Below, one piece after another: positions 3,001-60,475 of a stretch of 64,000 nt of DNA; the stretch's first letter is position 1; every line of letters starts with the position of its first letter. The position numbers and the translations under genes were made by a program. The stretch covers positions 45,851-109,850 of the forward strand of contig JAKAKI010000073.1 in assembly GCA_021813505.1 (NCBI GenBank), in the 5' to 3' direction. This DNA is from a bacterium (GTDB lineage Bacteria; Zixibacteria; MSB-5A5; WJJR01). The notes beneath the pieces were generated by a model that did not search any database, had not been told where the DNA came from, and was given only the letters and a program-made list of their open reading frames with translations.

Positions 3001-5029
3001 GGGTGGAATCGATCCTCTGGGCAAGGAGATCGTCATTGCTGGCGAACTCCCGCTGGGATCCACGATTGTCACCAACGTTCCCTACGCGCCGCCCATCACG
3101 ATCATGCGCGGCGAGGGCATTCGCATGATTGTCCGCGACCTGGCGATCTCCGGAGGTTGGGAGGCGGCGGGAATTCTGATTTCCGGGGCGTCACCCTCGA
3201 TCATCAATAACCTCATCACGACCAACTACGGTGGCGGCTTTGGCGGAGGAATACGAATTCAGGGCGGAGGCGGACCGGTGATCCGGGGGAATCGAATCAC
3301 AGGGAACTCCGCGCTGCAGGCGGGCGGCGGGATTTACGTCGGAACAGGAACCTCGGCGATCATCGATCAAAACGTGATCACCGGGAATCAAGCCGGCAAT
3401 GGGTCGGCGCTCGCGCAGGAAGGTGGAGGGAATCTGCTGGTGATCGGAAATACGATGTCAGCAAACTTCGCATCGGCCACACCAGGAGGCGCTGTCTTCA
3501 CTTCGCAACGGTCCGGCGGGGGCTCCAATTTCCGCTTCGAGCACAATACGATCGCCGGAAACACCTCATGGGCGGGACAAGGCGCTGGAATTGTCTGTGA
3601 CTACTCAAACGGCGGTGAGATTACCAACAACATCATCGCCTTCAACAATGGCGGGTACGGCGTTTATGCCTGCGGGAAAGCGGGCGCCTCACCTGTGGTT
3701 CAGTTCAATGATCTCTGGTGGAATGATTCCGGACCCTACGGATGTGTCACGCCCGACACCGGCAACATCTTTGCGGATCCCCGCTTCTGCGATACCTCGC
3801 TACAGGATTTTCAACTGGCGGCAAACTCGCCCTGCCTGGGGAGTGGCGCCGATAGCACGACCATCGGGGCACTCGGACAGGGTTGCGCTACCGCCTCTCC
3901 CCTCATGCCCGTCTGCAAGGACATTAGAGTTGATCCGCCGAGACCTCCCGAGCATGTGGTGAATAAGACGCCCCAGATTCAGTGGACCTACACCGATCCG
4001 GGCTCCCGGCCGCACCAATGCTCGGAAATTCAGGTGGGCACAGACAATGATTGGACTCTGGTGGAAATGTGGGCACCGCCGGTGATTTTGGGCCCCCAAA
4101 CGGCCATCATTTACAGCGGCCTCCCTCTTTCCGAGGGCCAATGGTACACCGTCCGCGTACGCGTGCGGAACGACACCCTGTGGAGCAATTGGGTTCAATC
4201 TGCGTTTCGCCTGAATTCCAAGCCCACAGCTCCCGCGCTCTATACCCCGGGGAACAATGTCGCCCTGGCAACGGCACGGCCCACGCTGACCATTCAGGCA
4301 TCCGCCGACGGGGACAATGACTCGCTGACGTACACATTCGTCGTGTACTCCGACAGCACCCTCAACACCCCGGTGGATTCGGTGGCGGGGACATCCTCAC
4401 TGATCTGGACGACCGACTCGCTGACCCGCGAGAACCAAAAGCACTGGTGGCGTGTGCGGGCGAACGATGGATTCGAATCGAGCGACTGGTCCCCGGTTCG
4501 GTCGTTCTGGGTCAACGCGATCAAAGAACCGCCGACGGCATTTAATCTGCGCACCCCGAACGATGGTGTCGCCCTCTACACGCCCCATCCGGCATTTGCG
4601 TGGGACCCGCCTGCCGATCCGGATCCGCGCACGGTGTATTCATACACGATCACGATTTCGCTCAATCCAACTTTCACGTTCACGCAGGATATGTCGACAT
4701 TCGCGACGTCGTTTACGTGGCCCGAATCGTTGTACATTCGCGCCACTTACTGGTGGAGGGTGAGCGCGGATGACCACAACGGCGACACGATTACGTCACC
4801 GGTTCGGCGATTGGTGCTCGCGTGGCCTGGCGATTTGACGGGTGACCGGCTGACAGATGTCTTTGACGTGATTATGTTGATTGGGTACGCGTTTGGCGGT
4901 GGCGATGCCCCCAGCCCATTGAATCTGGGGGACGTGAATGGAGACTGCGTGATCGACGTTCTGGATGTCATTGATCTGATCCGTTACGTTTTCGAGGACG
5001 GGCCTGAGCCAGTCGCGGGATGCCTGTGA
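32..5029 (+). CDS. Giant secreted tandem-repeat protein (1665 aa) with three ~480-aa units (right-handed beta-helix plus Fn3-like modules) and a C-terminal double dockerin-like module. It is possibly 5'-partial: the frame is open back to base 2 and a GTG start is used.
   Basis: Long ORF. The motif 'PxxQPTIQxGxDxAxxxDxVLVAPGTY' recurs at aa ~1, ~480 and ~960. 'NNI(I/V)xNS' and 'DYNDLWNNHP(D/N)YE' beta-helix rungs repeat. 'YWWRARV' Fn3-like cores repeat. The C-terminus has 'GDVNGDCVIDVLDVIDLIRYVFEDGPEP'. There is no in-frame stop between base 2 and base 32. Confidence 0.8.
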   Translation: MIHVPSDQPAIQAGIDASSSGDVILVAPGTYSENIDFKGKTIVLISEAGPASTILRPADNWLPTVSIQGYVGEMPEISGFTLTGSRSRVIVIGSSASPTISRNVFVDNPNVMDVAIYSDGANPLILFNLFVRSANISAVGIYNGSATIVNNTFDGNRRGFFTISGAGVARNNIVTNSLEYGVYGNFTEFDYNDIWNNHPDYEGGAISGPHDISQNPAFQAPSSLDYTLQPGSPCIDAGDPSPQFNDPDGSRSDMGYASLGGLPRAAIPHLVQEDPLHVLGHTPTFEWVFVDNANLQSAYEIEVGTDLSWDVVEMWSTGVVVSAASSVVYSGLPLVDGAGYYWRIRLSNGTAWGDWKTSFFRMNSPPSVPVPNRPLDGASARVKALRLFVNNSTDAEADPLVYDFEIYSDPAMTLLVGSQTGVTQTASPTSSAPFPPLPDFPEYWWRARVSDGFQYSDWTAPLRFTPRTGPILVPSEQPTIQSGLDVAMQNDTVLVAPGTYREYLTLNLRAITLMSTGGPSLTTITTQSGPNLYLSNIQGETPFSLKGFTIAGNGTGVAAENSRFTIEECNFEGRGYLVHFSGYSSNGTIRGCRFISAQPGSGIGILVDNLATLVLARCLFVKLNYGVLMSSGVATLTNNTFDQNQCGVLSQYATVTARNNIIANSVNAGFASGSISSDYNDLWNNHPNYESGAVAGAHDIDLDPRFRDPAGLDYSLMPISPCINAGDPDPQYLDPDGTRNDLGAYPLLYGLPTSAYLNLGPENANHVVSHTPSFHWSFLDSVGSQVGYELEVGTDTIWNAAELWATGPVIAPDSVVPYSGAPLTDGSTCYWRLRLYNGTIWGGWREAGFHMNSIPSVPLADSPTGGVRTCPARLRLYIDISTDAEADRLGYDFQIFGDAALANRITSQSNVPEDGIPTGSQEFDLPGQPADYWWRARAYDGYEHSAWTVAEHFVIRPALLHVPADWPTPAAAIAASCSGDTVLLAHGTYSGGIDPLGKEIVIAGELPLGSTIVTNVPYAPPITIMRGEGIRMIVRDLAISGGWEAAGILISGASPSIINNLITTNYGGGFGGGIRIQGGGGPVIRGNRITGNSALQAGGGIYVGTGTSAIIDQNVITGNQAGNGSALAQEGGGNLLVIGNTMSANFASATPGGAVFTSQRSGGGSNFRFEHNTIAGNTSWAGQGAGIVCDYSNGGEITNNIIAFNNGGYGVYACGKAGASPVVQFNDLWWNDSGPYGCVTPDTGNIFADPRFCDTSLQDFQLAANSPCLGSGADSTTIGALGQGCATASPLMPVCKDIRVDPPRPPEHVVNKTPQIQWTYTDPGSRPHQCSEIQVGTDNDWTLVEMWAPPVILGPQTAIIYSGLPLSEGQWYTVRVRVRNDTLWSNWVQSAFRLNSKPTAPALYTPGNNVALATARPTLTIQASADGDNDSLTYTFVVYSDSTLNTPVDSVAGTSSLIWTTDSLTRENQKHWWRVRANDGFESSDWSPVRSFWVNAIKEPPTAFNLRTPNDGVALYTPHPAFAWDPPADPDPRTVYSYTITISLNPTFTFTQDMSTFATSFTWPESLYIRATYWWRVSADDHNGDTITSPVRRLVLAWPGDLTGDRLTDVFDVIMLIGYAFGGGDAPSPLNLGDVNGDCVIDVLDVIDLIRYVFEDGPEPVAGCL

Positions 5030-5268
5030 GGCATGCGGCTGCTGGTGGGAAATCGCCTCGCGCTAGGGATCTGATCGCAGTAATCAAGCATGCTTTCAGT
5101 TATGGCCCGTCGGCGGCATCGCGCTGCCCGTAGACGCCGTTTGTGGACTTTCGCCTCCCCCCTCCCATGCCGGACGGCCGGCGGCCGCATCCAGATTCCA
5201 TTGTCTACAAGTCAACTCGCCTGCGTACCAGAGGTGTGACAGATTCCACCGATTGGGAGGGTAGACAC

Positions 5269-6009
5269 ATGGGAAGTTTCGCCACCGTCCGGCGTTTGAT
5301 CGCTCTGGCCCTGGTCGTGCCGCTTGCGCTCGTCAGTTGCCAAAAGAAGTCGGCCTCGAATTCGAACGGAAGCGCCGAATGGGATATCGACGCGAACGGA
5401 ATTCCGAAGTTTGTCCAAACGAACTACACCGACCTGGGCGCTATTGACCGGATCTCGCGCTTCCGTTCCGCGTATGGCCACGACTACACACATGACGACC
5501 ACTTGGAGCATTGCCGGAGCATGAAGCATTACTTCTGGCCCAAAGGTGGCGACCCTGGATGGTCACACAATCCTTCGTGGACGACAATCCCGATTCGGTC
5601 TCCGATCGCGGGAACAGTGACACGGCTGATGCCCGAGTTCGCCGGAACACAGATTTGGATCGGCTCGGACGCGTACCCGGCGTTCGAATTCCGCATTTTC
5701 CACGTGGGCATCTCCCCCGCGCTCCTCGAGGGGGACAAGGTTTCCGAGGGGCAGGTTCTGGGACATCATGGCGGAGACGAAACCATGATGGATATCGCGG
5801 TGCGGGTGGCGACGCCAAGTGGATGGCGGTTGATTTCGTACTTTGACGTCATGACTGACGGGCTATTTCAATCCTACGTCTCGCGTGGCGTCATCTCCCG
5901 CAGCCAGCTCATAATCACAAAGGCGGAGCGAGATGCTGATTCACTGACATGCTCCGGGGAACAGTTTATCACGACAGGCCAGTTGGAGAACTGGGTGCCG
6001 TTAAATTGA
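5269..6009 (+). CDS. Hypothetical lipoprotein (247 aa).
   Basis: ATG at 5269 is preceded by GGGAGG. The signal peptide plus lipobox reads 'LALVSCQ'. Coding periodicity is present. No recognisable catalytic motif. Confidence 0.6.
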   Translation: MGSFATVRRLIALALVVPLALVSCQKKSASNSNGSAEWDIDANGIPKFVQTNYTDLGAIDRISRFRSAYGHDYTHDDHLEHCRSMKHYFWPKGGDPGWSHNPSWTTIPIRSPIAGTVTRLMPEFAGTQIWIGSDAYPAFEFRIFHVGISPALLEGDKVSEGQVLGHHGGDETMMDIAVRVATPSGWRLISYFDVMTDGLFQSYVSRGVISRSQLIITKAERDADSLTCSGEQFITTGQLENWVPLN

Positions 6010-6255: not shown

Positions 6256-7437
6256 GTGAGAATCAGGATCCCCCGCTCGTTGCTGGCACTTTTGTGCTTG
6301 TCGATTGGGCTGCTGTTCGCGATTTCGACGGCCGCGTCATCGGTTCACGCACAGGGGAACATCTACGGAATTGTCCAAGGCACGAATCTGGTGAGTCCAC
6401 CAGCGACTGACCTTTGTTGGCTGGGGTTTCTTAATCACAGCGACCAGGAAATTCGGATTGAAACCAATACCGGCGCCGGCTACGACGGCACCAACTGGTT
6501 CGACGATTTTCAGAACTACACCAGCCACGCTGCCGGCATTCCGTACGATTACTATTTCGTCAACATCACCAATGGAGAGGCGCAACATCTCTCCAAAACG
6601 GTGCCGGCCAATTCTTTTCAACAGGAGAACATCCTCCTGGCGGTGGGGAGTTTCCCAGCGCGGCCGACCGGGCTGGTGGCGCGAGTGGCATCGACGCGAC
6701 GGATCATTCTCAGTTGGAACTCACAGCCGGGAATGACCTGCCATGTTTACCGGCGGGTCACGTCCAATGCCGGAGTGTTCCGGCGTATCGATGATCCGAT
6801 GGGATCTCTGGCCAATTTTGGGGTCACCGATTCGTTCTTCGTGGATAGCACATCGGATGGGATCAGCGATTACACGTATGTCCTCATCGCCCAGAATGCA
6901 TCGGGGAACTTCTCGGCGCACTCGGCAACGTCATCCGCACTCGCATCGGTGGCGAACACCCCGGCTGTTGCAGCAGTCATGCCGGATTCGGGTGCACCTG
7001 CCGGCGGGTATTTGGTCACGATCCGCGGGACGAATTTCGATATCGCCGGCGCGTCGGTGACGTTTCGCGGGATCGCGGCCACTAGCGTCACCGTGCAGTC
7101 ACCGTTCTCCCTGAGCTGCACTGTACCGGCAGGCTCACCGGGATTCGCGATCGTCGTCGTAACCAACACTTCGTCCGGAGTGGCCTCCTCACCACTGACG
7201 GCAGGTTTCCATTACGAGGGAAAGGCATTCACGCGGGGTGACGTGAATCTCGATGGGGCGATTGATGTCTTTGACAGTGCGTATTTGATCGAATTCATCT
7301 TCAGCGGCGGACCGGAGCCCATGCCGGTGGCCGAAGCCGGCAATGTCGATGGCGATCCGGATCACATCATCGACGTATTCGATCTTGTCTACCTGCTTGA
7401 GTACACGTTCAGTGGCGGGCCACCGCCCCCTCCATAG
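6256..7437 (+). CDS. Secreted Fn3/IPT-like domain protein with a C-terminal double dockerin-like module.
   Basis: N-terminal signal peptide. Ig-like/TIG-like segments ('PAVAAVMPDSGAPAGGYLVTIRGTNF'). C-terminal 'GDVNLDGAIDVFDSAYLIEFIFSGGPEP' and 'GNVDGDPDHIIDVFDLVYLLEYTFSGGPPPP'. Confidence 0.7.
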   Translation: MRIRIPRSLLALLCLSIGLLFAISTAASSVHAQGNIYGIVQGTNLVSPPATDLCWLGFLNHSDQEIRIETNTGAGYDGTNWFDDFQNYTSHAAGIPYDYYFVNITNGEAQHLSKTVPANSFQQENILLAVGSFPARPTGLVARVASTRRIILSWNSQPGMTCHVYRRVTSNAGVFRRIDDPMGSLANFGVTDSFFVDSTSDGISDYTYVLIAQNASGNFSAHSATSSALASVANTPAVAAVMPDSGAPAGGYLVTIRGTNFDIAGASVTFRGIAATSVTVQSPFSLSCTVPAGSPGFAIVVVTNTSSGVASSPLTAGFHYEGKAFTRGDVNLDGAIDVFDSAYLIEFIFSGGPEPMPVAEAGNVDGDPDHIIDVFDLVYLLEYTFSGGPPPPP

Positions 7438-7520: not shown

Positions 7521-9236
7521 CTAACGAACCAGCAACATCTTGCGCGATAGGGTCTGGGCGCCTGAGGTCATGCGGGCGAAGTAGACTCCGGAAGCGAGCG
7601 GCTGACCCGACCTGTTGTCACCGTTCCACACAAGTTCATGCGTTCCGGAGTCTGCGCTACCGGAAAAGAGTGTGTTCACCATCCGACCGAGGATGTCGTA
7701 GACGGAAACGGTGACTCGCTCGCGTCCGTTGACAACGAACCGAATCACTGTTGACGGGTTGAACGGATTCGGCATGTTCGTCAGGTCGAGCGCGTATCGG
7801 ATGCTTCCCGGGGCAATGTCATCGAAGACGCCAGTGACGAGCGGAACCGTGAGATCGCACGACATCGACGCGGCAGACGCCGAGATATTGGTCACGGTGA
7901 CGTAACTCGGCGCACCGGAGTACGCGTTGGAACTGGGTGAGGTCGAGGCAGAGAAAGTCGCAGCGAGGGATGGTCCAGGGTAAGGATCGGCGGAGTCCCC
8001 CAGATTGATGTTCTTTTCCATCTGCCATAGATTGTCAGCTTGCTGCAGCGCCACCAGGTAATTTCCATTGGATGTATGGCCGGGGTACCACTCGGACATG
8101 TTCGACATGCGGCTTTCATCAATACGCCAGATGAGCAGCCCCGAGCCTGGAAGCGCGGCGTCGTAACCCAGCTTCTGCCGATTCTCCAGCAGAAAATACT
8201 CGCGTCCTCCCGTGCCCTCGATCGGCAACCGGTAAACAAAGCCCTGAGTCTCGTTGGCAGGGACAACCGCTCCTGCCACGCTGACCATGACATCGAGAGG
8301 CAGGATGATACCGAGCTGATACTTGCACCAGGCGTCGAGGTGGGCGGGTGAATTCCCCAGACGTCCGTTCCAGGCACCCGAGGCCATGAGCGACCACTTG
8401 CCCACGCCACGAGAGCTGCCGTCCAAGTCGTAGAGGTCGGGCAGACCCAACAGATGGCCGATCTCGTGGGCGAACACACCAATCGTTATGTCACCGGGAC
8501 GGTTCCAGAATTCCGGCTGGATCGTGTATGAACTGACATACACGCCGTCGCGCAGGCGGGGCATGATGCCCCACTTGTGTGACCAGATGTCATTGGTGGA
8601 GAAGGTGAATTCGGCCCCACGGCCCGTGTGCACGATGATGATTCCATCGACGAACTTGTCCCCGTCGTTGTCGTAGTCGGCGAAGTTGACGCACGAATCG
8701 ACTTTGTCCACCAGGTCCTCGCAGAGCTTTTGGGTATTGTGGGGATAGACGCCCATCCCGTAGTCCGCGTTGACATAGCTGGTGTAGCTGCTGTCGAGAT
8801 GGTGCCACCCGAGCGCGGAGGGCAAATTCACGGTGGTGATGGTGAGTGTGTGGTAGGTGATTTCATGGTAGAAGTCGCGCACCGAACCGGGATCATCGCT
8901 GAAGATCAGGGTATCGAACACGAGCGCCGGAACTGATGCCGGCTTGTCGGGGAAATCAACACAGATCGCCAGAATGTTGAAGTTGCCCACCCGTCGGATG
9001 CCGGCTGCCGGACCGCCATCGGGCTGATCGATGCCGCGTGCCGCAAACGATGCGCTCATTTGAGAGTAAAGACCGGCGCTGGCGCTAAGACCGGGTACGA
9101 TCGGATGCGAACTGTCGCCAGGGTAGGGCGGCATGGCATTGGCGTTGAAGAAGAGCCCCGACGCGCAGAGAATCAATATTCCCAGAAGACCGCCCGATCC
9201 AATGGGCAAGACACGCAAGCGATGCATTACGGGCAT
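7521..9236 (-). CDS. M6-family (immune inhibitor A-like) zinc metalloprotease with a T9SS-type C-terminal sorting domain.
   Basis: 'VFAHEIGHLLGLPDLYD' matches the HExxHxxGxxD zinc-binding motif of M6 peptidases. Signal peptide present. The C-terminus 'GVYFARMTSGAQTLSRKMLLVR' resembles a Por-secretion/FlgD-Ig tail. Confidence 0.75.
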   Translation of the reverse strand: MPVMHRLRVLPIGSGGLLGILILCASGLFFNANAMPPYPGDSSHPIVPGLSASAGLYSQMSASFAARGIDQPDGGPAAGIRRVGNFNILAICVDFPDKPASVPALVFDTLIFSDDPGSVRDFYHEITYHTLTITTVNLPSALGWHHLDSSYTSYVNADYGMGVYPHNTQKLCEDLVDKVDSCVNFADYDNDGDKFVDGIIIVHTGRGAEFTFSTNDIWSHKWGIMPRLRDGVYVSSYTIQPEFWNRPGDITIGVFAHEIGHLLGLPDLYDLDGSSRGVGKWSLMASGAWNGRLGNSPAHLDAWCKYQLGIILPLDVMVSVAGAVVPANETQGFVYRLPIEGTGGREYFLLENRQKLGYDAALPGSGLLIWRIDESRMSNMSEWYPGHTSNGNYLVALQQADNLWQMEKNINLGDSADPYPGPSLAATFSASTSPSSNAYSGAPSYVTVTNISASAASMSCDLTVPLVTGVFDDIAPGSIRYALDLTNMPNPFNPSTVIRFVVNGRERVTVSVYDILGRMVNTLFSGSADSGTHELVWNGDNRSGQPLASGVYFARMTSGAQTLSRKMLLVR

Positions 9237-9632: not shown

Positions 9633-12600
9633 ATGAAGTTCAGCGTGCGAACTGTTCTGGCCGGGTCTGCTCTTGCCCTGCTTCTCGCGAACAACGGGCT
9701 CTGCCAGACAGCACCGGCAGCGCCAAAAGACAGTGCCAATCAGAAATGGGATGTCTCCAAACCGCAATTGCCGGCTGACACACTTGAGTTCGACGCGACC
9801 GAGGGAACCTGGATGGCGCTCGATGTCTCCCCCAATGGCCGGGAGATCGTGTTCGACCTGCTGGGCGACATTTACAAGATGCCGATTGAGGGTGGCAACG
9901 CTACGCTGCTGACCGGTGGACTCGCTTATGACGTCCAGCCACGGTTCAGCCCCGACGGCAAGTCGATTCTGTTCACCAGCGACCGGGGCGGGGGCGACAA
10001 CCTGTGGATGATGAATGCCGACGGCAGCAAGCCGGTCCAGATCACCAAGGAAGATTTCCGGCTATTGAACAACGGGGCGTGGCATCCCAGTGGGAAATAC
10101 GTCGTCGCCAAGAAACACTTCACCAGCGAGCGCAGCCTGGGGGCCGGCGAGATGTGGATGTTCAAAGTCCCTGAGGGCGGCGCGGGCGTGCAACTCACCA
10201 AGAAGAAGAATGATCAGCAGGATGCCAACGAGCCTGTCTTCTCGCCGGACGCTCATTATCTCTACTGGTCGGAGGACATGTCGGGCGGGGCGTTCTTCCA
10301 ATACAATAAGGACCCGAATGGGACCATCTTCATGATCCGCCGGCTCGATTTGCAGACCAACGAGATCCGCAATCTGATCGACGTCAACGGCGGCGCCTGC
10401 CGGCCGCAGGTCAGCCCGGATGGCAAAACGATTTCCTTCGTGCGCCGCGTGCGCGGCAAGTCGGTTCTGGCGCTGTTCGATCCTGCCAGTAATGAAGTCC
10501 GGCATCTGTGGAACGGCCTGGAGTTCGATCAGCAGGAAACCTGGACACTTTTTGGGGCGTACCCCGGCTACAGTTGGACGCCCGATGGCAAGAGCATCGT
10601 GATCTGGGCCAAAGGGAAGCTCTGGCGGGTTGATGTCAATTCCGGCACGCCGACCGAGATTCCGTTCAAAGCGCATGTCAAGCAGGCCGTGACCAAGGCG
10701 CTTCGATTCGCGCAGACTGTTGGGCAGCCGACATTCCCGGTCAAGGTGATGCGCTGGCCACAGATTACTCGCGACGGGCGTAGCGTGGTCTTGCAAGCGC
10801 TGGGATATCTGTATCGCCGTTCGCTGACTGATAGTTCTTACACACGGATCACGGCCCAGACCGACCACTATGAATTCGCACCGGCGCTGTCCTCCGACGG
10901 TAAAGAGATCGTGTATGTCACCTGGAACGACACCAGCGGCGGCACCATTCGGATTGTCGGAGCCGACGGCAGCAAGGACCGTGTCCTGGTGTCTGCTCCC
11001 GGCCATTATGTCTCGGCGCATTTCTCGAATGACGGCAAGTGGGTGGTGTACCATCGGGGAATCGGCGATGGCTATCGCGGCCACATCTGGGAAAACGATC
11101 CCGGAATCTACGTCATCTCCACCGACGGCAAAACCCCGTCACGGTTCCTCACCCGCGAGGGGAGCACACCGCGATTCTCGCAGGATGGCAAACGCATCTA
11201 CCTGATTTCCGGCGAAGGCGAAAAGGCCGCGCTGGTCAGCATCGATCTTCTGGGCTCGGATCGCCGGCTCCTGGCGACATCGCAACGCGCCGTCGATTTC
11301 TGCCTCTCCCCTGACGAAAACTTCCTGGCGTTCGAGGAGCTTTGGCAGTCATACGTGGTACCTTTCCCGCACATCAATGTTCCGCTAGAGGTCGCGCCGG
11401 AGATGATGAATCTGCCGGTGAAGAAGCTGTCGACCGACGGCGGTACATACCTCGGCTGGTCGGCCGACAGCAAGACGGTCACCTGGAGTCTGGGACCGGA
11501 TTTCTGGCGGGCGGACATTGAAGCGCTCTACACAAAAGACACAACGTTGGCCGCCGGTGCCAAGACGCCGGATTCGTCAAAGGCGTACAAGCCGGCACTG
11601 GCGCATTTGGGCTGGCAGGAGAAGGCCGATATCCCATCCACTGATCTGTATTTCGTGGGCGCCAGGATTCTTCCCATGAATGACCTGTCAGTGATCGCCG
11701 ATGGTGTCGTGCATGTCAAAGGCAACCGAATCGCCGAGGTCGGCGAACGCGGCAAGATTAATGTGCCGGCGGGTGCCATGGTTTATGACGTGACGGGCAA
11801 AACATTGATGCCGGGATTGATCGATATCCACGCGCACACCGGCTCGAGCAATCAGAGTGTGTATTCCCAGCAAATCTGGGCGTTTCTGGCCAACCTTGCA
11901 TTTGGCGTGACCACCACCCACGATCCCAGCAACAATTCCGAGATGATCTTCGCTGAATCGGAATTGGCGAAAGAGGGCAAACTTCTGGCGCCCCGTGTGT
12001 TCAGCACCGGCACGATTCTCTATGGCGCCGAGGGAAATTTCAAGACTGTGATTAACAAATACGAGGACGCGGTCAGCGCGATTAGACGGACAGCCGCCTG
12101 GGGCGCGTTCAGTGTCAAAAGCTACAATCAGCCACGGCGCGATCAGCGGCAGATGGTCAATAAGGCCGCCTACGAGCAGCGCATCGAGGTGGTGCCCGAG
12201 GGCGGCTCCACGATGAATCACATGATGACGCTGGTTTTGGACGGTATCACGACGCTCGAGCATCCCTTCCCGCAGGCGCAACTCTATGATCCGGAATTGC
12301 GCCTTCTCGGCAGGTTCGGTACCGGGTACACGCCGACTTTGATCGTCGGGTACGGTGGATTGTGGGGAGAGAACTACTGGTATCAGCATGAGAACGTTTG
12401 GGAGAATACCCGGCTCGGAAAATTCGTGCCACGTTACGTGATCGACCCACGCTCTATTCGGCGCACGATGGCGCCCGACTCCGAGTATCACCATTTCGCG
12501 CTCGCCAAGGTGGCCACCGAGATTCTCCACCGCGGAGGAAATGTCGAGCTGGGCGCGCATGGCCAGCTTCAGGGGCTCGGCGCGCACTGGGAGCTTTGGA

Positions 12601-20760: not shown

Positions 20761-21903
20761 ATGCTTTACCGCAAGATGCCGGACGCCGATCCTGCCCTGT
20801 CGATTCTGGGCTTCGGATGTATGCGGCTGCCGGTGGACGGTGGCGGGCATATCGACGAGCCTGGAGCGACCGAGATGCTCCGCTGGGCAATCGACCACGG
20901 TGTCAACTACGTGGACACGGCTTATCCCTATCACAACGGCGAGAGCGAACCGTTTGTGGGCCGGGCATTGCAGGATGGTTATCGCAGCAGAGTCCAGTTG
21001 GCAACGAAACTGCCGAGCTGGCTGGTGACGACCCGCGCCGACATGGACAAATATCTCGATGAGCAATTGAAACGGCTTCAGACCGAGCAGATCGACTTCT
21101 ACCTCGTCCACTCCCTGAATCAGGCTTCTTGGGAGAATATGCAACGTCTGGGGATCGGCGAGTTCCTCGACAGTACTATCGCCGACGGACGGATTCGCTG
21201 CGCCGGATTCTCATTCCATGACCAGGCTGGTGTCTTCAAGAAGATCGTCGACGGATACGACTGGACCTTCTGCCAGATTCAGTACAACTTCATGGACGAG
21301 GATTACCAGGCCGGTACCGAGGGGCTCCGTTACGCGGCCGCACGCGGACTGGGGATCGTGATTATGGAACCATTGCGGGGCGGCGTGCTGACGCGTGAGG
21401 TCCCGGCCGTTCAGGACGTATGGAACCGTGCGGCGACGAAGCGCACACTCGCCGACTGGTCACTGCGTTGGATATGGAACCATCCCGAGGTCCATGTCGT
21501 GCTCTCCGGAATGGGCACGTTGGAGCAGGTTCGCGAGAATATCGCCTCCGCCGGCACTGCTACTCCGTCGTGTTTGTCCACGGAGGAACTGAATCTCTTT
21601 GACCTTGCCCGCGAAGAGTATCGCAAGCGAATCAAGGTGCCTTGCACCTCGTGCAATTACTGCATCCCCTGCCCATCCGGCGTGAAGATACCGACATGTT
21701 TCGAGATCTATAATCTGGCTCACATGTATGACGCGGCGGAACGCGCCAAGGGCTTGTATGAATTCATGCTGCGGGCAGGGACATCCAATGGCGCCGGGTT
21801 CGCCTCGCTGTGCGAGAAGTGTGGCGATTGCGAAGCGCTCTGCCCGCAGGGGATTCCGACACGAGAGCGGATCGGTGAGGTGGCGGCGTACTTTGGAAAA
21901 TAG
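20761..21903 (+). CDS. Aldo/keto reductase with a C-terminal 2x[4Fe-4S]-type Cys cluster domain.
   Basis: AKR TIM-barrel N-terminus. C-terminal 'CTSCNYCIPCPSG' and 'CEKCGDCEALCPQG' ferredoxin-like motifs. Confidence 0.8.
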   Translation: MLYRKMPDADPALSILGFGCMRLPVDGGGHIDEPGATEMLRWAIDHGVNYVDTAYPYHNGESEPFVGRALQDGYRSRVQLATKLPSWLVTTRADMDKYLDEQLKRLQTEQIDFYLVHSLNQASWENMQRLGIGEFLDSTIADGRIRCAGFSFHDQAGVFKKIVDGYDWTFCQIQYNFMDEDYQAGTEGLRYAAARGLGIVIMEPLRGGVLTREVPAVQDVWNRAATKRTLADWSLRWIWNHPEVHVVLSGMGTLEQVRENIASAGTATPSCLSTEELNLFDLAREEYRKRIKVPCTSCNYCIPCPSGVKIPTCFEIYNLAHMYDAAERAKGLYEFMLRAGTSNGAGFASLCEKCGDCEALCPQGIPTRERIGEVAAYFGK

Positions 21904-21925
21904 GAAGCAGGACAAAGGACCAAGG

Positions 21926-23875
21926 ATGGTAAGGGCATCGACCGTACTCGCAGTTGTATTCGCTTCGGTCCTGGCATTTGGGCCCTTGAAGGTCCTGGCG
22001 AAACCGGGTGACGTCACGCATGTCGTTTCGCATGCCAATCGCAAAGTCGTGACCGATCCCTCGAAGGGATTCAACGCCTACCGGAACTGGGCGGTATTCC
22101 CGTCCACGGCCACTCCCTATCGCAGAATCGTGCTGTCGGTGACTTATCGCTGCCCTGACAGTCTCCGATGCGGCGAGTGGGATTACATCGACGGCATCTT
22201 TTTGCGGCGCACCGGGGGGGGTGTTTCGCCGTCACGCGACATCGAACTGGCGCGCATGATCTCCCCTTACGGCAGCCGGTTCGGGCCGTCGTGGCACTTC
22301 ACCTGGCAGACGGATGTCACCGACTTCGGGTTCTTGCTGCACGATTCCGTTGAAATAGAATTCAATCACGGCGGGTACGAAAGCAACACCGACCGCGGCT
22401 GGCTGATCACGTTGGACTTTGCCCTGACTGAGGGACCTCCGGCGCTGCCGATATTGGGCATGGACACGCTCTGGAATGGTACGTTCCCGTACGGGGATAC
22501 ATCCAAACCCATCGAGCAACTGCTGCGCCCAATTCCGTTTACCGATCGATTCGAAGCCCAACGGGGGCGTTTGCGAATTGTCCAAACCGGACACGGGATG
22601 GACGACTCGGAGAATTGCGCGGAATTCTGCAGCAAGACGCGGCGCGTGCTGCTCGACGACTCAGTGCGTGAGGAACGTCAGATTTGGCGCCGCTGTGGGA
22701 CAAACCCGCTCTCCCCTCAAGCCGGCACCTGGCTCTATGACCGGGCGAACTGGTGCCCCGGCTCGATTGTCTTCCCTGACTTGGTCGATTTCGCGATCGA
22801 GCCCGGCTCGACGCACACGCTGGCCATCGCGATGCAACCGTACGCGAACACCAAGACGCCCACGGCCAACTACTGCATCCATTCTTACCTCTTCTATTGC
22901 GGCCAGCCTCGCGCCGCACACGATGTCTCGGTGCTGGACATCATCGCACCCAGTGCGAGAGAAGAATGGGGACGGTTAAACCCGATCTGTGGCGATCCCC
23001 TTATCCTCATCAGGAATAGCGGGAGTGAACCATTGACATCTGTCGAGGTACGTTACCAGATCGACGGCGGAGATCCGCAGCGGTATCACTGGAGAGGAAT
23101 TATTCCTTCGCAGCGGGACGCGGCCATCAGTCTGTTAGGCTCATGGGGGGCGATTGAAGGCCACACGTTCGAAGTCACGCTCAGTTCGCCTGACAGTGCC
23201 ATGGACGAATACCCGGCGGACAACTCAATGACGTCGATCATCGCTGCTACACCGGAGTATCCCACTCAATTCGTTCTGGCTTTCCGCACCAACAACGACT
23301 CAACCCAGAATGGCTACGAGCTGGTCGACGCCCAGGGGAATACCGTCTTGAAGCGTGACCCCAGATCGCTTCGGCCGCGAACGAATTGTCGGGACACGCT
23401 AACACTAGCACCCGGATGCTACCAGTTGATTTTCGCCGACACGGTCGGCGATGGACTCGATTTCTGGGCGAATCCCGATGGCGGCTATGGCTATGTGCGC
23501 CTGTTGGATATGCAAGATCATCTCATTCATTCCTTTAACTCCGACTTCGGCAGTGAAATCCGCCATTCGTTCCGCGTGGGACTCGATGTGCACCCCCCTG
23601 TTCCGATCGACACGTTACCGCTGGTGAACCCGTTCCCGGTTCGTAACAAGGGGATCTTTTCGGTGGAGCTCTTCCAGAACGAGCCGGGTGAAATCGCGCT
23701 AACGATCACGGATGAGAGCGGCAGGAAGACGGTATTTCGGCGGTCGTTCCCCGACATCAAGGAAGCGACAGTTCAGCTCGACATCAGCGACGTGCCGGAT
23801 GGGGTCTACTTCCTCACGGCAACGTCTGCCGGACACTCGGTGACACGGCGAATCCGCGTCAAGCACGGCGACTGA
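21926..23875 (+). CDS. Secreted hypothetical protein (649 aa) with a T9SS-type C-terminal sorting domain.
   Basis: ATG 21926 with RBS 'aaggaccaagg'. Signal peptide 'VLAVVFASVLAFGPLKVLA'. The C-terminal ~80 aa, 'GIFSVELFQNEPGEIALTITDESGRK...GVYFLTATSAGHSVTRRIRVKH', is Por_Secre_tail-like. The upstream extension overlapping the AKR gene was rejected. Confidence 0.65.
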   Translation: MVRASTVLAVVFASVLAFGPLKVLAKPGDVTHVVSHANRKVVTDPSKGFNAYRNWAVFPSTATPYRRIVLSVTYRCPDSLRCGEWDYIDGIFLRRTGGGVSPSRDIELARMISPYGSRFGPSWHFTWQTDVTDFGFLLHDSVEIEFNHGGYESNTDRGWLITLDFALTEGPPALPILGMDTLWNGTFPYGDTSKPIEQLLRPIPFTDRFEAQRGRLRIVQTGHGMDDSENCAEFCSKTRRVLLDDSVREERQIWRRCGTNPLSPQAGTWLYDRANWCPGSIVFPDLVDFAIEPGSTHTLAIAMQPYANTKTPTANYCIHSYLFYCGQPRAAHDVSVLDIIAPSAREEWGRLNPICGDPLILIRNSGSEPLTSVEVRYQIDGGDPQRYHWRGIIPSQRDAAISLLGSWGAIEGHTFEVTLSSPDSAMDEYPADNSMTSIIAATPEYPTQFVLAFRTNNDSTQNGYELVDAQGNTVLKRDPRSLRPRTNCRDTLTLAPGCYQLIFADTVGDGLDFWANPDGGYGYVRLLDMQDHLIHSFNSDFGSEIRHSFRVGLDVHPPVPIDTLPLVNPFPVRNKGIFSVELFQNEPGEIALTITDESGRKTVFRRSFPDIKEATVQLDISDVPDGVYFLTATSAGHSVTRRIRVKHGD

Positions 23876-26970: not shown

Positions 26971-28494
26971 ATGGCCGGACATTCAGCAAGTGCCTTGCAA
27001 GCGGCGCGGCGTTGGCGCATGGCGACAAAGCCGATGATGAGTATTTGCCTCGTCATGGCTGTGACGTTGATCGGCGTGGCGGTTGCTCAGGCGGATTCGG
27101 GCCGACTGACGCGGCTGACACTCGAACCAATACAGAAGACAATCATCAAAGACGCCGGCTTGCCTCGAGAATCACTGGCCGCGCCTCAGGCAGAATGGGA
27201 TTTCGGACTCTTCTATGAACACGGGATATTGCAGCTCGTGTTAAATGATCCACCAAGCTCGAGTTGGAAGGTCACCTTCGACAGCCTGCCGGGGATGTTC
27301 GCACAGCCCGACTCGGGGTTCTTCGCCGCGCCCGGGGTCCAGTACTGCAACATCTATCTAGACCGGACCGGCCTGCCCTTCCGCACGTATCATGGCGCAA
27401 TCACGGTGACCTGGAGCATCCCGGCGACTGATTTGCTCCCCACGCGATTTCAGGTGGCCGACACGCTTGTCAATGGCGCATTCGCGCCTCCCAACGTCTC
27501 GCCTCTCACTGCGGGATGGGTTTACAATTTCGAGCATCGCGATACTGTTTCGTTGTGGTCAGCCGCGTATGGGACCGTCTACTTCGAGATCAGGGCTGAT
27601 GGCAGCACAGTGGTGGGTAGTGATCTGACAGGGACGGCGCCCTACCGAGGCGTCTTCATGTGGATTCCTTACAACACGGTAACCGTTCCCTCAACCGCAA
27701 ACACTCTTTGGACAATTTCGAGGCTGACGGTTGGATCAGCGCCCTACGGCGACGACAGTGCCCGCATCATCTACAACGTCGCCGGCACGCATTATCCGCC
27801 GCAATGTCTGCAGGCGCCGGATGTGAGAATTCGCTGTGATGATGCCGCGCAGAACCAATTTCAATATTCGGGAGCCGATCAGGTGAAGTGGCGCCAGATA
27901 CTCGGCCCCGGGACCACCGATTCACTGAACGGCCATTGGCAGTGGAATCCCGGCTGTTCTGATGCCGGTTCGCATCTCGTCTCCGCCGCCATGTCTACGT
28001 CCTACTTCCCGAATGCGGACACGTGCAGTTTCCAGGTGACGGTCCTCGACTCGGCCGGCTTTCGGTTCGCGCTCGGCGACGCCGATTGCAATGGCGTTGT
28101 CGACGTAATGGATATCGTTGCAATCATCGACTACGTCTTCAACAACCAGAGCATCTGCTACAGCCTTCTCGCGGACTGGGACTGCAATGGCCAGGCAGAC
28201 GTGTTCGATCTGGTCGCGATCATCGATTACGCGTTCAACGGCGGTCTGCGCTCAAACGCGACCGCGCTGGTCAGCGCACCAGCATCGGTGCCGGCGGGGG
28301 ACACGGCCTTCTTCGTTGCCCGAACCTGTCTCCCTGGGCGCGAGTCAGAGATCCAGTGGCTGGCGCCCGACGGGAGCCCTTCGTTTGGATCCGGGCCAGC
28401 GTTCAAGACTATGTTCGCCGCGCCCGGACTCCACATTTGCACCTTTGAATGTTGCGAAGGGGCACGGGACACCGTCATTGTCAATGTATTGTGA
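26971..28494 (+). CDS. Secreted hypothetical protein with an internal double dockerin-like module followed by a Cys-rich ~80-aa tail.
   Basis: ATG 26971 with RBS GGAGG. Signal peptide 'MSICLVMAVTLIGVAVAQA'. 'GDADCNGVVDVMDIVAIIDYVFNN' and 'DWDCNGQADVFDLVAIIDYAFNGG'. Confidence 0.65.
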   Translation: MAGHSASALQAARRWRMATKPMMSICLVMAVTLIGVAVAQADSGRLTRLTLEPIQKTIIKDAGLPRESLAAPQAEWDFGLFYEHGILQLVLNDPPSSSWKVTFDSLPGMFAQPDSGFFAAPGVQYCNIYLDRTGLPFRTYHGAITVTWSIPATDLLPTRFQVADTLVNGAFAPPNVSPLTAGWVYNFEHRDTVSLWSAAYGTVYFEIRADGSTVVGSDLTGTAPYRGVFMWIPYNTVTVPSTANTLWTISRLTVGSAPYGDDSARIIYNVAGTHYPPQCLQAPDVRIRCDDAAQNQFQYSGADQVKWRQILGPGTTDSLNGHWQWNPGCSDAGSHLVSAAMSTSYFPNADTCSFQVTVLDSAGFRFALGDADCNGVVDVMDIVAIIDYVFNNQSICYSLLADWDCNGQADVFDLVAIIDYAFNGGLRSNATALVSAPASVPAGDTAFFVARTCLPGRESEIQWLAPDGSPSFGSGPAFKTMFAAPGLHICTFECCEGARDTVIVNVL

Positions 28495-54164: not shown

Positions 54165-55052
54165 ATGATGGCCGTGTCACATACATTGCGCAACCCGTCG
54201 TACATAGTTCGCGTTGCGTGCTTGGTCTTCTGCGTCCATCTCACCCTCTGGTTCATCGGCTGTGCCGGGGCGCCCCCCCGCCCCGAGGAGGATCAGCTCG
54301 CCGCGCTTCAGGTGCGACGATACCCCGCTGCCATGAAGACCGTCTTCAGTGCCGCCGTGGACGCCGCCCAGGATCTTGAATTCACGGTCGACGCGGCCAA
54401 CACGGATGCCGGAGTGCTGACGGCTACAGCGCAGACGGACCGGGAACTGGCCAGGATCACGCGGGCCGATGACCACGGATTGCCCACCTGGGCGTGGGTT
54501 GCGTTGATCGCCACCGGCGTCATCATCATCGTCGCCGCCATTGTGATCCTCTCCTCAAATGATGACGACGACAAGTCCAGGTCGGGTGACGAGGGAACCA
54601 AAGAGAAGCGACGCGAAGGCGACAAAGAGGGCAGAGAACTTTCCACAAAGACCTCGCAGGGTGGCAAAGTGACTTTGCCTGGAGATGAGAGTGGCCGCAA
54701 AGATACAGTCCGTGTGAAATACAAAGAGAAACCGTCCGCCGAGCGCGAGCACCGGCACAGAGACAGAACGGGTGGCGGGCAATACTACTACGACGAACCC
54801 GATGCCGATTTCATCATCATCGGCGAGGACAGTCCCCACGCCAGGGAATGGCACCAGTACCGGCTGACTCTGCACTTTGATAATCCCGAGCCGGCCGAAA
54901 CCATCGTACGCCTGAGCGTCCAGGGAGTCCGCCTCGAAGGCCCGGAAGTCAAGGAAGCGGGGCCGGTGTACGATGCAGTATTCTACCAGCGATTCTTCGC
55001 CACACTCGAGAATTCGCTGCGGCAAATGCCGGCAGACAGCACGGCGAAGTGA
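54165..55052 (+). CDS. Hypothetical lipoprotein with a charged low-complexity linker.
   Basis: 'LTLWFIGCAG' lipobox. An internal TM. 'SSNDDDDKSRSGDEGTKEKRREGDKEGRE'. Confidence 0.5.
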   Translation: MMAVSHTLRNPSYIVRVACLVFCVHLTLWFIGCAGAPPRPEEDQLAALQVRRYPAAMKTVFSAAVDAAQDLEFTVDAANTDAGVLTATAQTDRELARITRADDHGLPTWAWVALIATGVIIIVAAIVILSSNDDDDKSRSGDEGTKEKRREGDKEGRELSTKTSQGGKVTLPGDESGRKDTVRVKYKEKPSAEREHRHRDRTGGGQYYYDEPDADFIIIGEDSPHAREWHQYRLTLHFDNPEPAETIVRLSVQGVRLEGPEVKEAGPVYDAVFYQRFFATLENSLRQMPADSTAK

Positions 55053-57731: not shown

Positions 57732-57746
57732 TCGGGCTGGCTCGCG

Positions 57747-58708: not shown

Positions 58709-60475
58709 TCACGGACAGCCGGGGGGTGATCCCGGCGTGCACGGATTGCATGGATTGGGACCGCCGGAGAAAGCGGTCGCAATCAGATAGATGACGTCGA
58801 ACACATCAACCATCCCGTTGTTGTTGACATCGCCGCGCGTGGCCGGACACTGGGCATCCTGAATGTCCGAAGCGCCGCTGAACGCAATCCCAATGATTTC
58901 GATGACGTCGAAGACGTCGAGCAAGGCATCTCCTGTGGGGCGCGGGGCGATGTCACCCTGGCTGGGACAATTGCAGAAACTCGCGAACGCCGCCTGCAGA
59001 TTCGGCCTCGGTCCGATATTCCCCGCCGGCGGCATGACCTGGGGCGTGCCGGTTGCGATCAATGTGCTGCGTATAAAGCCGGGCGTGGGCAAAGGCGTGC
59101 CCAATGTCGCCTTCCAATACCCCATGCAACATGCGACCGCACCGGCGACGATCGGCGATGCGCTCGAGGTGCCGGAGAATGTATTCGTGTAGGTGAAGTT
59201 GGGACCATCGAAATTATACCACGAGCCGTAACCAGCGGTCATAACGTCCTCACCCCACCCCTGGAGATCGAACCTGGGCCCGTAGCTCGAAAACGAGATT
59301 CGCTGGAGATCTGTCTCGGGATATGTCCCGCCGGGATAGGCGCCTCCCGCGCCAACGATGATCGCTCCCGAGTTACCATACCACGACATCGCTCCCATAT
59401 TGACGCCGCCATTTCCGCCAGCCTCCACAACGTGAATACCGGAGGCCACGGCGTTGACGATCGCCGCATAGACGCCATTGAAACTCTGAGGGCTGTTGGA
59501 ATAATTCAACCACCACTCGATGGGAATGAAGTTACCGCTGCCAACCGTGTATTCCCATTGCTGCTCAAGAAGAATTACGTCACCGGGAGACAGATTGGCA
59601 ATCGCCACCGCCATGGCACCGGGGACATTCCAACTGGGCGCGGGCAGGCCATAGTACGTTCCGCACGTCTTCAGCGTGGCGGCATAGCAGATGCCGGTCG
59701 TGCCCCAGCCGTTGTTGTCGGAGACCAATTCACCAATAACGGCGGTACCGTGATCCTTTCCATAACCAGGATCGGCAATGTTGTTGTTGATCTGCGACAA
59801 CGGCGCCTGTGTGAGGTCGCCATGGCTGATTCCCCAGGCATACTCGAGGTCACAAACGGTAACGCCGGCACCATTTCCACCCGGCTGTGTCCAGGCATAG
59901 TCCGCACCAATGCCGGATGGCACAAAGCTCGCCACACGGAGATACCCCTGCCAGCCGGTAAAATCCGGGGGCGGATAGGGCGGCGGTGTGGGTTTGGGCA
60001 CGGGCCGTGCCAGCAGTACGCCAGGAAGGGCTTCGAGTTGGCCGCTGATCGCCCAGACATCACTCCCCTTGGGAATGCGGAGGCGGAGGATGTTGTTCAG
60101 ATTGTAAACAGGCTGTCCGGTGTTCGCCTCGCCACGGGCCTGGATCTCATCGAGGCGCACCTCGGGCACATGACTGATCGGCTGCCACTCGACCCAGGGA
60201 AGAGGCTGCAGCACTCCACCAACTCCTTCCAGACCTTGTTTTGATGCAAGGTCGACCGGCAGGCCGCCGCGCAGCCGGACGCGTGACTCCGGCAAGAACA
60301 TCACCTCGATGAGGTCATCCTCTGAAAGATACGGTGCAGCCGCCACCAAGTCCGGGAGCACCACCGCCGCAATTATGAAGCCAAAAAGCAGGATGCCAGA
60401 TTGCCGGATGCTCGAAGTCAGCATCCGTTTCCATGAACGGATTGGAGTGTTCATTTTCGCAACCTCCTGAGACAA
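58709..60475 (-). CDS. S8-family subtilisin-like serine peptidase with a C-terminal double dockerin-like module.
   Basis: His box 'DHGTAVIGE'. Ser box 'GTSSASPIVAG'. Signal peptide. C-terminal 'GDALLDVFDVIEIIGIAFSG' and 'RGDVNNNGMVDVFDVIYLIATAFSGGPNP'. Confidence 0.75.
   Translation of the reverse strand: MSQEVAKMNTPIRSWKRMLTSSIRQSGILLFGFIIAAVVLPDLVAAAPYLSEDDLIEVMFLPESRVRLRGGLPVDLASKQGLEGVGGVLQPLPWVEWQPISHVPEVRLDEIQARGEANTGQPVYNLNNILRLRIPKGSDVWAISGQLEALPGVLLARPVPKPTPPPYPPPDFTGWQGYLRVASFVPSGIGADYAWTQPGGNGAGVTVCDLEYAWGISHGDLTQAPLSQINNNIADPGYGKDHGTAVIGELVSDNNGWGTTGICYAATLKTCGTYYGLPAPSWNVPGAMAVAIANLSPGDVILLEQQWEYTVGSGNFIPIEWWLNYSNSPQSFNGVYAAIVNAVASGIHVVEAGGNGGVNMGAMSWYGNSGAIIVGAGGAYPGGTYPETDLQRISFSSYGPRFDLQGWGEDVMTAGYGSWYNFDGPNFTYTNTFSGTSSASPIVAGAVACCMGYWKATLGTPLPTPGFIRSTLIATGTPQVMPPAGNIGPRPNLQAAFASFCNCPSQGDIAPRPTGDALLDVFDVIEIIGIAFSGASDIQDAQCPATRGDVNNNGMVDVFDVIYLIATAFSGGPNPCNPCTPGSPPGCP

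What the first reader, a model, noticed from the sequence alone, without database searches (positions are those of the whole stretch)
4800..60475. Recurrent paired dockerin-like modules on four unrelated secreted proteins, suggesting a cohesin-dockerin-like display system outside Firmicutes
Four proteins carry two tandem copies of a ~22-aa EF-hand-like segment: the 1665-aa beta-helix protein (C-terminus ~4830-5029), the Fn3/IPT protein (~7240-7437), the 507-aa secreted protein (~28080-28250) and the S8 protease (N-terminal of 58709, i.e. the C-terminus of that minus-strand gene). The segment reads 'D(V/A)NxDGx(I/V)DVxDVIxLIxYxFxGGPxP', often preceded by GD/TGD. This matches the calcium-binding duplicated dockerin architecture. 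Four occurrences in 64 kb on enzymes of different classes implies a shared docking partner (a scaffoldin or cohesin-like anchor) that is not obvious in this window. The same locus also encodes T9SS C-terminal-domain cargo.
Basis: partly seen in the sequence, partly recalled or inferred. Interest (0 to 1): 0.72.

Follow-up and report, generated by a model that had tools for sequence, protein, structure and literature searches.

The report
Dockerin modules on Zixibacteria secreted proteins
Four secreted proteins of an uncultured Zixibacteria genome carry a genuine but divergent calcium-binding dockerin module. Such docking tags are already known outside Firmicutes, so this is a new lineage example, and its binding partner was not found.

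Summary
Exactly four ORFs in the window carry two tandem EF-hand-loop-plus-helix segments: a beta-helix protein, an IPT/TIG protein, a 507-aa protein and an S8 protease. All four have signal peptides.

The organism is a Zixibacteria MAG. In two related MAGs the same module ends at least 43 proteins within about 414 kb. These are proteases and adhesin-repeat proteins, with no glycoside hydrolase among the families shown. T9SS C-terminal domains occur on other proteins, never on the same ones.

No Pfam cohesin was found in about 325 ORFs of the window and those loci, so the proposed partner is unverified.

The idea is not new. Non-cellulosomal dockerins across all domains were reviewed in 2009. 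A dockerin, cohesin-scaffoldin and T9SS-CTD system was inferred for Cloacimonadota in 2021.

Verdict: new member of a known kind; modest interest.

The parts
4829..5017 (+). Paired dockerin module (two Ca-loop + helix segments) at the C-terminus of the beta-helix protein; stop codon at 5027-5029
   Evidence: sequence; custom HMM, 51 and 50 bits; Pfam Dockerin_1 34.4 bits on the isolated module, above the 22.9 cutoff
1..5029 (+). Host gene 1: secreted right-handed beta-helix / NosD-like protein with Ig_Rha78A_N domains. It starts upstream of the window; full length 1688 aa with a signal peptide.
7237..7434 (+). Paired dockerin module at the extreme C-terminus of the IPT/TIG protein
   Evidence: (Dockerin_1 19.2 bits, top hit, below cutoff)
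6256..7437 (+). Host gene 2: 393-aa secreted IPT/TIG-domain protein with a signal peptide
28075..28260 (+). Paired dockerin module, internal, followed by a 77-aa tail that is weakly PKD-like
26971..28494 (+). Host gene 3: 507-aa secreted protein (signal peptide ...AVAQA/DS). The N-terminal ~340 aa have no family match.
58745..58942 (-). Paired dockerin module of the Cys-containing subtype (CxCPxQGD ... QCPxTRGD ... NPC) at the C-terminus of the S8 protease
58709..60475 (-). Host gene 4: secreted subtilase (Peptidase_S8)
7521..9236 (-). Context: M6 metallopeptidase with a T9SS C-terminal sorting domain and no dockerin
   Evidence: Peptidase_M6, FlgD_ig, Por_Secre_tail
21728..23875 (+). Context: PNGase-F-like protein with a T9SS C-terminal sorting domain and no dockerin
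   Evidence: N-glycanase_C; Por_Secre_tail 34.1 bits

Best explanation
These are genuine, divergent type-I-like dockerin modules. Each is two EF-hand-like Ca2+ loops, each followed by a helix, packed into a small three-helix domain.

Proposed mechanism:
1. The proteins are exported by the Sec pathway of a Zixibacteria cell. All four have signal peptides (shown).
2. The module folds around two Ca2+ ions outside the cytoplasm. This is inferred from conserved ligand positions 1, 3, 5, 9 and 12. In the S8 subtype four conserved cysteines probably staple it, also inferred.
3. Its conserved helix face (DVFDVIxLI...F) is then presented to one common partner, so that proteases, adhesin-repeat proteins and a beta-helix protein are held together or on the cell surface (inferred).

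The most likely partner is a cohesin-like scaffold or anchor, possibly itself T9SS cargo, as proposed for Cloacimonadota. That partner has not been found.

The payloads are proteolytic and adhesive, not cellulolytic. If a complex exists it is a non-cellulosomal 'exoproteome display' system.
For: Identity as dockerin:
- Dockerin_1 is the top Pfam hit for all four isolated modules, and one is above the cutoff.
- A 25-module profile against PDB sequences gives about 29 dockerin hits, best E 4.4e-8.
- Ca-ligand positions are conserved in both loops across 47 modules. D9 and D12 are 47/47.

Shared-partner inference:
- The same module sits on unrelated payloads in the window.
- It sits on at least 43 ORFs in 33 loci of two related MAGs, always within 0-19 aa of the C-terminus and often on 2-3 adjacent genes.
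- Modules are 61-80% identical to the window's S8 module while the payloads differ.
- Positions 10-11 of both loops are almost invariant V-F. In clostridial dockerins these positions carry cohesin recognition (established knowledge, recalled from memory).

Extracytoplasmic, surface-type payloads: S8, M28 and M64 peptidases, plus cadherin-like, FG-GAP, PKD, HYR and Big_9 domains.

Precedent in the same superphylum: PMC8542988.
Against: - No Pfam cohesin (E<=0.01) in about 325 ORFs of the window and about 414 kb of related genomes. This includes the dockerin proteins themselves and their large secreted neighbours.
- Recurrent neighbours are only two-component regulators.
- Zixibacteria are presumed diderm. 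No route across the outer membrane is evident for proteins that lack a T9SS CTD. The secretin next to one dockerin gene belongs to a PilMNOPQ pilus cluster.
- Three of four modules fall below Pfam's cutoff, and all fall below the NCBIfam dockerin_GC cutoff.
- Many organisms have dockerins without cohesins, and the function there is unknown (PMC5244752, citing Peer 2009).
Confidence: 0.55

Rival explanations
1. The module is a cohesin-independent C-terminal tag. It would be a lineage-specific anchoring or sorting signal that attaches cargo to a non-protein envelope component (LPS, EPS or an S-layer) or directs it to a dedicated export or attachment machine. In this reading it works as an alternative to the T9SS C-terminal domain.
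For: - The module is at the extreme C-terminus in 3 of 4 window proteins and in all 43-50 relatives.
- It never co-occurs with a T9SS CTD.
- One ~190-aa passenger domain occurs with a dockerin in nine proteins and with a T9SS-CTD-like tail in L026:11351-12403.
- No cohesin was found.
- NCBI curates a separate 'GC-type dockerin domain-anchored protein' family, NF041540, which these modules match only weakly.
Against: - Canonical dockerins are also C-terminal, so position does not discriminate.
- In the 507-aa protein the module is internal.
- Poly-dockerin proteins with up to 14 tandem modules exist among relatives. That fits a binding module better than a terminal signal.
- No candidate machinery co-occurs in the sampled loci.
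Confidence: 0.2
2. The module has no docking role. It would be a Ca2+-dependent stabilising domain, or a small ligand- or glycan-binding domain, that spread by domain shuffling among secreted proteins.
For: - EF-hand-type loops with complete ligand sets.
- Dockerin-like modules are extremely common: 60,870 cluster representatives at E<=1e-3. Most are in organisms with no described cohesin system.
- Function outside cellulosomes is stated to be unknown (PMC5244752).
Against: - Helix residues that would be solvent-exposed are strongly conserved across about 47 paralogous modules while payloads are unrelated.
- A purely stabilising domain would not need a fixed C-terminal position or such uniformity.
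- Stand-alone dockerin mini-proteins exist, for example P0023 at 129 aa.
Confidence: 0.15
3. The repeats are a chance or low-complexity resemblance, or an artefact of spurious ORFs.
For: Three of four modules are below Pfam's gathering score.
Against: - Eight copies score 45-57 bits, with nothing else in the six-frame window above E=0.02.
- Profile E of 4e-8 to solved dockerins.
- All four host ORFs have recognised domains or signal peptides, and the same genes are called on independent assemblies.
Confidence: 0.01

Closest known systems
Type I dockerin of clostridial / ruminococcal cellulosomes (Pfam PF00404; e.g. PDB 2ccl_B, 4dh2_D, 5lxv_B)
   Different: - Only 17-26% identity.
- Helix motif is DVFDVIxLIxxxFSGGPxP, with V-F where clostridial dockerins carry the S-T type recognition pair.
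- The S8 subtype has four conserved cysteines flanking and linking the repeats.
- The host is a presumed diderm of the FCB group.
- Payloads are peptidases and adhesin repeats, not CAZymes.
- No cohesin was found.
Non-cellulosomal dockerin-like modules across Bacteria and Archaea (Peer et al. 2009, FEMS Microbiol Lett 291:1; cited in PMC5244752, PMC10066038, PMC6487960)
   Same: Dockerin modules on non-cellulolytic proteins in organisms outside Firmicutes, often without a recognisable cohesin; function unknown or proposed as adhesion.
   Different: That paper could not be read here. No paper in the searchable library mentions dockerins in Zixibacteria.
Cellulosome-like system inferred for Ca. 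Stygibacter (Cloacimonadota), PMC8542988
   Same: FCB-group uncultured bacterium with signal-peptide enzymes, including S8 and C25 peptidases, that carry C-terminal dockerins. T9SS C-terminal domains occur in the same genome.
   Different: There a 3,755-aa scaffoldin with tandem cohesin and CBM domains and a T9SS CTD was identified. Here no cohesin-bearing protein was found in the sequence available, and no GH payload was seen.
NCBIfam NF041540, GC-type dockerin domain-anchored protein
   Same: C-terminal dockerin-like domain regarded as an anchor. Several modules here also end in G-C (...AGCL, ...PPGCP).
   Different: Scores are 15-20 bits against a cutoff of 29, so these are not members by the curated threshold.
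T9SS C-terminal sorting domain (Pfam PF18962 Por_Secre_tail)
   Same: A C-terminal module shared by many otherwise unrelated secreted proteins of the same genome. It occurs on a homologous passenger domain.
   Different: A beta-sandwich of about 80 aa that is cleaved by PorU. There is no sequence or fold relation to the helical Ca2+-binding dockerin, and the two never occur on the same protein here.

Membership tests
Dockerin type I (Pfam PF00404) | Two tandem segments, each a 12-residue EF-hand-like loop followed by a helix | tested here: met
   AF2 secondary structure shows H18-30 and H55-67, and H19-31, H38-41 and H51-63.
Dockerin type I (Pfam PF00404) | Ca2+-ligand residues (D/N) at loop positions 1, 3, 5, 9 and 12 in both repeats | tested here: met
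   Across 47 modules, position 1 is D in 43 and 42; position 3 is N/T; position 5 is D in 43 and D/N in 45; position 9 is D in 47/47; position 12 is D in 47/47. The first loops of the S8 and beta-helix modules in the window are partly degenerate (TGDALLDVFD, TGDRLTDVFD).
Dockerin type I (Pfam PF00404) | Score above Pfam's gathering threshold (22.9 bits) | tested here: inconclusive
   Isolated modules score 34.4, 19.2, 18.5 and 14.7 bits. In the full proteins the scores are 20.8 and 14.7 bits, and two give no hit. Only 9 of 43 relatives hit at E<=0.01. Dockerin_1 is nevertheless the top family each time.
Dockerin type I (Pfam PF00404) | Profile-level sequence homology to experimentally solved dockerins | tested here: met
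   best E 4.4e-8 (5lxv_B). About 29 dockerin chains score better than any non-dockerin except one weak hemolysin-related hit.
Dockerin type I (Pfam PF00404) | Dockerin three-dimensional fold | tested here: met
Dockerin type I (Pfam PF00404) | Ca2+-dependent binding to a cohesin | not testable with these tools
   Requires a partner sequence and experiments or multimer modelling.
Cohesin-dockerin assembly system (cellulosome-like) | Cohesin-bearing scaffoldin or anchor encoded in the same genome | tested here: inconclusive
   No PF00963 hit at E<=0.01 in about 325 ORFs, using spike-in controls with 10 known cohesins. Only the window and about 414 kb of two related MAGs were available. ORFs under 120 aa or with a Walker A motif were skipped.
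Cohesin-dockerin assembly system (cellulosome-like) | Dockerins on many different secreted enzymes of one organism | tested here: met
   4 proteins in 64 kb. At least 43 ORFs in 33 loci of two related MAGs.
Cellulosome in the strict sense | Dockerin-bearing glycoside hydrolases and CBM-bearing scaffoldin | tested here: not met
   Payload families are peptidases, Ig/cadherin/FG-GAP/PKD/HYR repeats and a beta-helix. No GH family is among those listed. Only the 25 most frequent families are displayed.
NCBIfam NF041540 GC-type dockerin domain-anchored protein | Score above the curated cutoff (29 bits) | tested here: not met
   15.4 bits for the IPT module, no hit for the other three window modules, and 15.5-20.1 bits for relatives.
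T9SS cargo (Por_Secre_tail CTD) | C-terminal beta-sandwich sorting domain | tested here: not met
   No Por_Secre_tail on the four dockerin proteins. A local CTD HMM hits five other proteins and no dockerin protein.

The most novel reading that the evidence does not exclude
The Zixibacterial dockerin subfamily (the Cys-stapled CxCPxQGD...NPC type and its Cys-free sister) may work without any cohesin. It would be a Ca2+-dependent C-terminal tag that anchors or sorts dozens of proteases and adhesins at the surface of a diderm cell. That would be a second cargo-tagging system running parallel to, and exchangeable with, the T9SS C-terminal domain.
Probability: 0.15. Interest if true: 0.65.

Novelty: new member of a known kind. 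Interest (0 to 1): 0.3.

Why it matters
If a partner exists, Zixibacteria would have a large dockerin-based surface assembly of proteases and adhesins. These are widespread, uncultured sediment and groundwater bacteria, so this bears on how they attach to and degrade particulate protein.

There is also a practical point. Pfam Dockerin_1 misses most of these modules in full-length proteins (9 of 43). Dockerin content in FCB-group MAGs is therefore probably under-annotated.

The general concept is already established: dockerins outside Firmicutes, and dockerin plus T9SS-anchored scaffoldin in an FCB phylum. The gain is therefore incremental.

Tried and rejected
- Pfam in alignment mode, with 10 known cohesins spiked in so that the Cohesin row is always displayed. 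The count stayed at 10 in three batches.
- Twenty large neighbours scanned individually showed no cohesin. They are PorU-like C25, M16, secretin, SecA, SMC and similar.
- The search for homologous proteins with the cohesin returned only near-identical clostridial fragments, useless for building a broad profile.
- Guilt by association. All-vs-all clustering of 409 ORFs found only response regulators and histidine kinases as recurrent non-dockerin neighbours.
- Small unknown ORFs in the window (13157-13639, 16808-17326, 54165-55052, 5143-6009) were inspected as possible single-cohesin proteins. They are a lipoprotein, a doubtful ORF, a membrane protein and a protein resembling an M23 peptidase by eye, with no Pfam hit.
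- L023:8649-10031 (three ~150-aa repeats plus a dockerin) was considered as an adaptor-scaffoldin candidate. Its A.DGD..T motif looks more like a discoidin/CBM-type domain, from memory.
The narrower A3 was used instead, which biases the loci toward the S8 subtype.
- Peer et al. 2009 is not held in the library. 'Zixibacteria' plus 'dockerin' returns no paper.
Full report
**Observation.** Translating the four stated regions shows the paired segments directly:
- Beta-helix protein: ...GDLTGDRLTDVFDVIMLIGYAFGGG... / ...GDVNGDCVIDVLDVIDLIRYVFEDGPEP...
- IPT/TIG protein: GDVNLDGAIDVFDSAYLIEFIFSGGPEP / GNVDGDPDHIIDVFDLVYLLEYTFSGGPPP
- 507-aa protein: GDADCNGVVDVMDIVAIIDYVFNN / ADWDCNGQADVFDLVAIIDYAFNGG
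- S8 protease: TGDALLDVFDVIEIIGIAFSG / GDVNNNGMVDVFDVIYLIATAFSGGPNP

An HMM made from these eight segments recovers exactly these four ORFs from all six-frame pieces of the window. Each has two copies at 45-57 bits, and the next best piece scores E=0.023.

Three details need correcting:
- The beta-helix gene begins upstream of the window. It is 1688 aa, with signal peptide MQSQVRILLFLALVVCAGTAFG/AV.
- The module of the 507-aa protein is internal. It is followed by a 77-aa tail that is weakly PKD-like.
- Pfam sees only TIG, not Fn3, in the second protein.

All four proteins have N-terminal signal peptides. An M6 peptidase (7521-9236, minus strand) and a PNGase-like protein (21728-23875) carry Por_Secre_tail domains.

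**Are they dockerins?** In the full-length proteins Pfam Dockerin_1 stays below its 22.9-bit cutoff. Scores are 20.8 and 14.7 bits, and two proteins give no hit. On the isolated modules it is the top family for all four, at 34.4, 19.2, 18.5 and 14.7 bits.
- A profile of 25 modules (four from the window, 21 from a homologue search) was searched against all PDB sequences. The hits were almost exclusively dockerins, best E 4.4e-8.
- Across 47 modules the Ca2+-ligand positions 1, 3, 5, 9 and 12 are conserved in both loops.

Homology and fold are therefore established as far as prediction allows. Membership by Pfam's curated threshold is met for only one of four. The NCBIfam 'GC-type dockerin' model is not met, at 15-20 bits against a cutoff of 29.

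**Organism and spread.** Window proteins cluster at 90% identity or more with proteins named 'candidate division Zixibacteria bacterium'. The window matches MAG GCA_027457245.1.

A scan of one genome per GTDB species with the S8-type profile returned 40 loci:
- 23 in Zixibacteria MAG JACRMA01.
- 10 in Zixibacteria MAG JAGVEK01.
- A few weak hits in Ruminococcus, Oscillospiraceae and Phycisphaerales.

In those 33 Zixibacteria loci (about 414 kb) the module occurs on 43-50 ORFs. It always lies within 0-19 residues of the C-terminus, and often on two or three adjacent genes.

Their payloads are Peptidase_S8 (five proteins), M28, M64, Big_9, cadherin-like, PKD, FG-GAP, HYR, TSP_3, Laminin_G_3, sortilin/BNR, ThuA and a cupredoxin. 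No glycoside hydrolase appears among the families displayed.

The consensus is C.CP.QGD[IL]NGDGvIDVFDVIgvIGIAFSG.pDPQDp.CP.TRGDVNnDGVtDVFDVIYLIaTAFSGGp.PvdPC.p. About 37 of 47 modules have four conserved cysteines. In the window only the S8 module is of this type, and the other three lack the cysteines.

A profile search of 1.84 billion cluster representatives found 60,870 proteins at E<=1e-3 and 15,622 at E<=1e-10. Some have up to 14 tandem modules. Dockerin-like modules of this general kind are thus very common in metagenomes.

**The partner.** None of the roughly 40 window proteins scanned has a Cohesin hit.

To survey the related loci I used Pfam's alignment mode with ten known cohesins added, so that the Cohesin row would always be shown. 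The count stayed at ten in every batch:
- 107 ORFs from the related loci.
- 116 ORFs, including the window's unannotated ones.
- The 43 dockerin proteins plus two unknowns.

Twenty large neighbours scanned individually are PorU-like C25 peptidase, M16, a PilQ-type secretin, SecA, SMC and so on. Recurrent neighbours are only two-component regulators.

This is a negative result on a partial sample, not on a genome. ORFs under 120 aa or with a Walker A motif were not scanned. A cohesin too divergent for the Pfam model would also be missed.

**Relation to T9SS.** Dockerin and T9SS CTD never occur on the same protein here. One ~190-aa passenger domain is found with a dockerin in nine proteins and with a CTD-like tail in L026:11351-12403. 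The two C-terminal modules therefore look like alternative fates for similar cargo.

This fits the Cloacimonadota model, in which dockerin enzymes bind a cohesin scaffoldin that is itself T9SS-anchored (PMC8542988). It also fits a cohesin-independent anchoring tag. The evidence here does not separate the two.

**Mechanism proposed.**
- Shown: Sec signal peptides, dockerin homology and predicted fold, complete Ca2+-ligand sets, recurrence on unrelated payloads, and strong conservation of the helix motif.
- Inferred: Ca2+-dependent folding outside the cytoplasm, disulfide stapling in the S8 subtype, and presentation of a conserved face (V10-F11 and the following helix) to one common partner that holds proteases and adhesins together or at the surface.
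- Unknown: the partner, and how these proteins would cross an outer membrane.

I put about 0.9 on 'dockerin-family module'. I put about 0.55 on 'docking to a shared, probably cohesin-like, protein partner'.

**Comparison with what is known, and novelty.** Non-cellulosomal dockerins in Bacteria and Archaea have been known since Peer et al. 2009, and their function is described as unknown or adhesive (as cited in PMC5244752 and PMC10066038). Dockerins assigned to Bacteroidetes were reported from rumen metagenomes (PMC6487960). Williams et al. 2021 inferred a dockerin, cohesin-scaffoldin and T9SS-CTD complex carrying S8 and C25 peptidases in Cloacimonadota.

No paper in the searchable library links dockerins with Zixibacteria. 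The lineage-specific expansion and the Cys-containing subtype that Pfam largely misses therefore appear undescribed there. This is a new member of a known kind, of modest interest (0.3).

Noticed in passing
L023:8649-10204 (JACRMA01): A 461-aa secreted protein made of three tandem ~150-aa Cys-rich repeats (CPGCEGQFRAGYECAKATDGDWMTSAVPD...). It ends in 'CDCPQ', and the dockerin continues in another frame at 9983-10204, so it is probably a frameshifted dockerin protein. The repeat has no Pfam or PDB sequence match.
   Followed up: partly
L026:11351-12403 versus nine dockerin proteins (e.g. L035:8456-10216): The same ~190-aa passenger domain occurs with a T9SS-CTD-like tail in one protein and with the dockerin module in nine others. 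This suggests the C-terminal tags are exchanged.
   Followed up: partly
P0023; L047:10001-10390 (GCA_027349185.1 and 15 other contigs): A 129-aa protein consisting only of a Gly/Ser-rich stretch and a dockerin module, i.e. a stand-alone dockerin. It lies between fatty-acid synthesis genes and a sulfatase gene.
   Followed up: no
Representative database hits P0065-P0213: Many proteins carry 4-14 tandem copies of this dockerin-like module, for example P0065 (1187 aa, 12 stretches) and P0093 (2637 aa, 14 stretches). Their origin and role are unknown.
   Followed up: no
Window modules and relatives versus NCBIfam NF045500: The last ~55 positions of the 'Omp28-related selenoprotein' model weakly match these modules (11-16 bits). 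That family may end in a dockerin-like segment.
   Followed up: no
window 44449-48827 (+): A Y-family polymerase (IMS domains) is immediately followed by a DnaE2-type Pol III alpha subunit. This is a typical damage-inducible mutagenesis cassette.
   Followed up: no
window 15553-16785 (+): A 410-aa signal-peptide protein built from about 20 short repeats of the form G(I/V)xAAG(I/L)A(T/V)(V/I)xEG. It has no Pfam match.
   Followed up: no
L001:1-577 and 768-2792 (upstream of the window start): An exosortase EpsH gene and a PAS/HisKA histidine kinase lie just upstream of the beta-helix dockerin gene. No PEP-CTERM protein was looked for.
   Followed up: no
L006:2219-8156 and L007:10365-13678: In both related MAGs a PilM/PilO/PilP/secretin (PilQ-type, with GspD N0 domain) cluster lies directly next to a dockerin gene. 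This is probably only conserved synteny.
   Followed up: partly
L018:1-3453 (-): A 1151-aa Peptidase_C25 protein of PorU-like size and layout lies near two dockerin genes. This supports the presence of a T9SS in this lineage.
   Followed up: no
Pfam Dockerin_1 detects only 9 of 43 lineage modules in full-length proteins. The precomputed annotations list none for the window's four proteins, so dockerins are under-annotated in these MAGs.
   Followed up: yes
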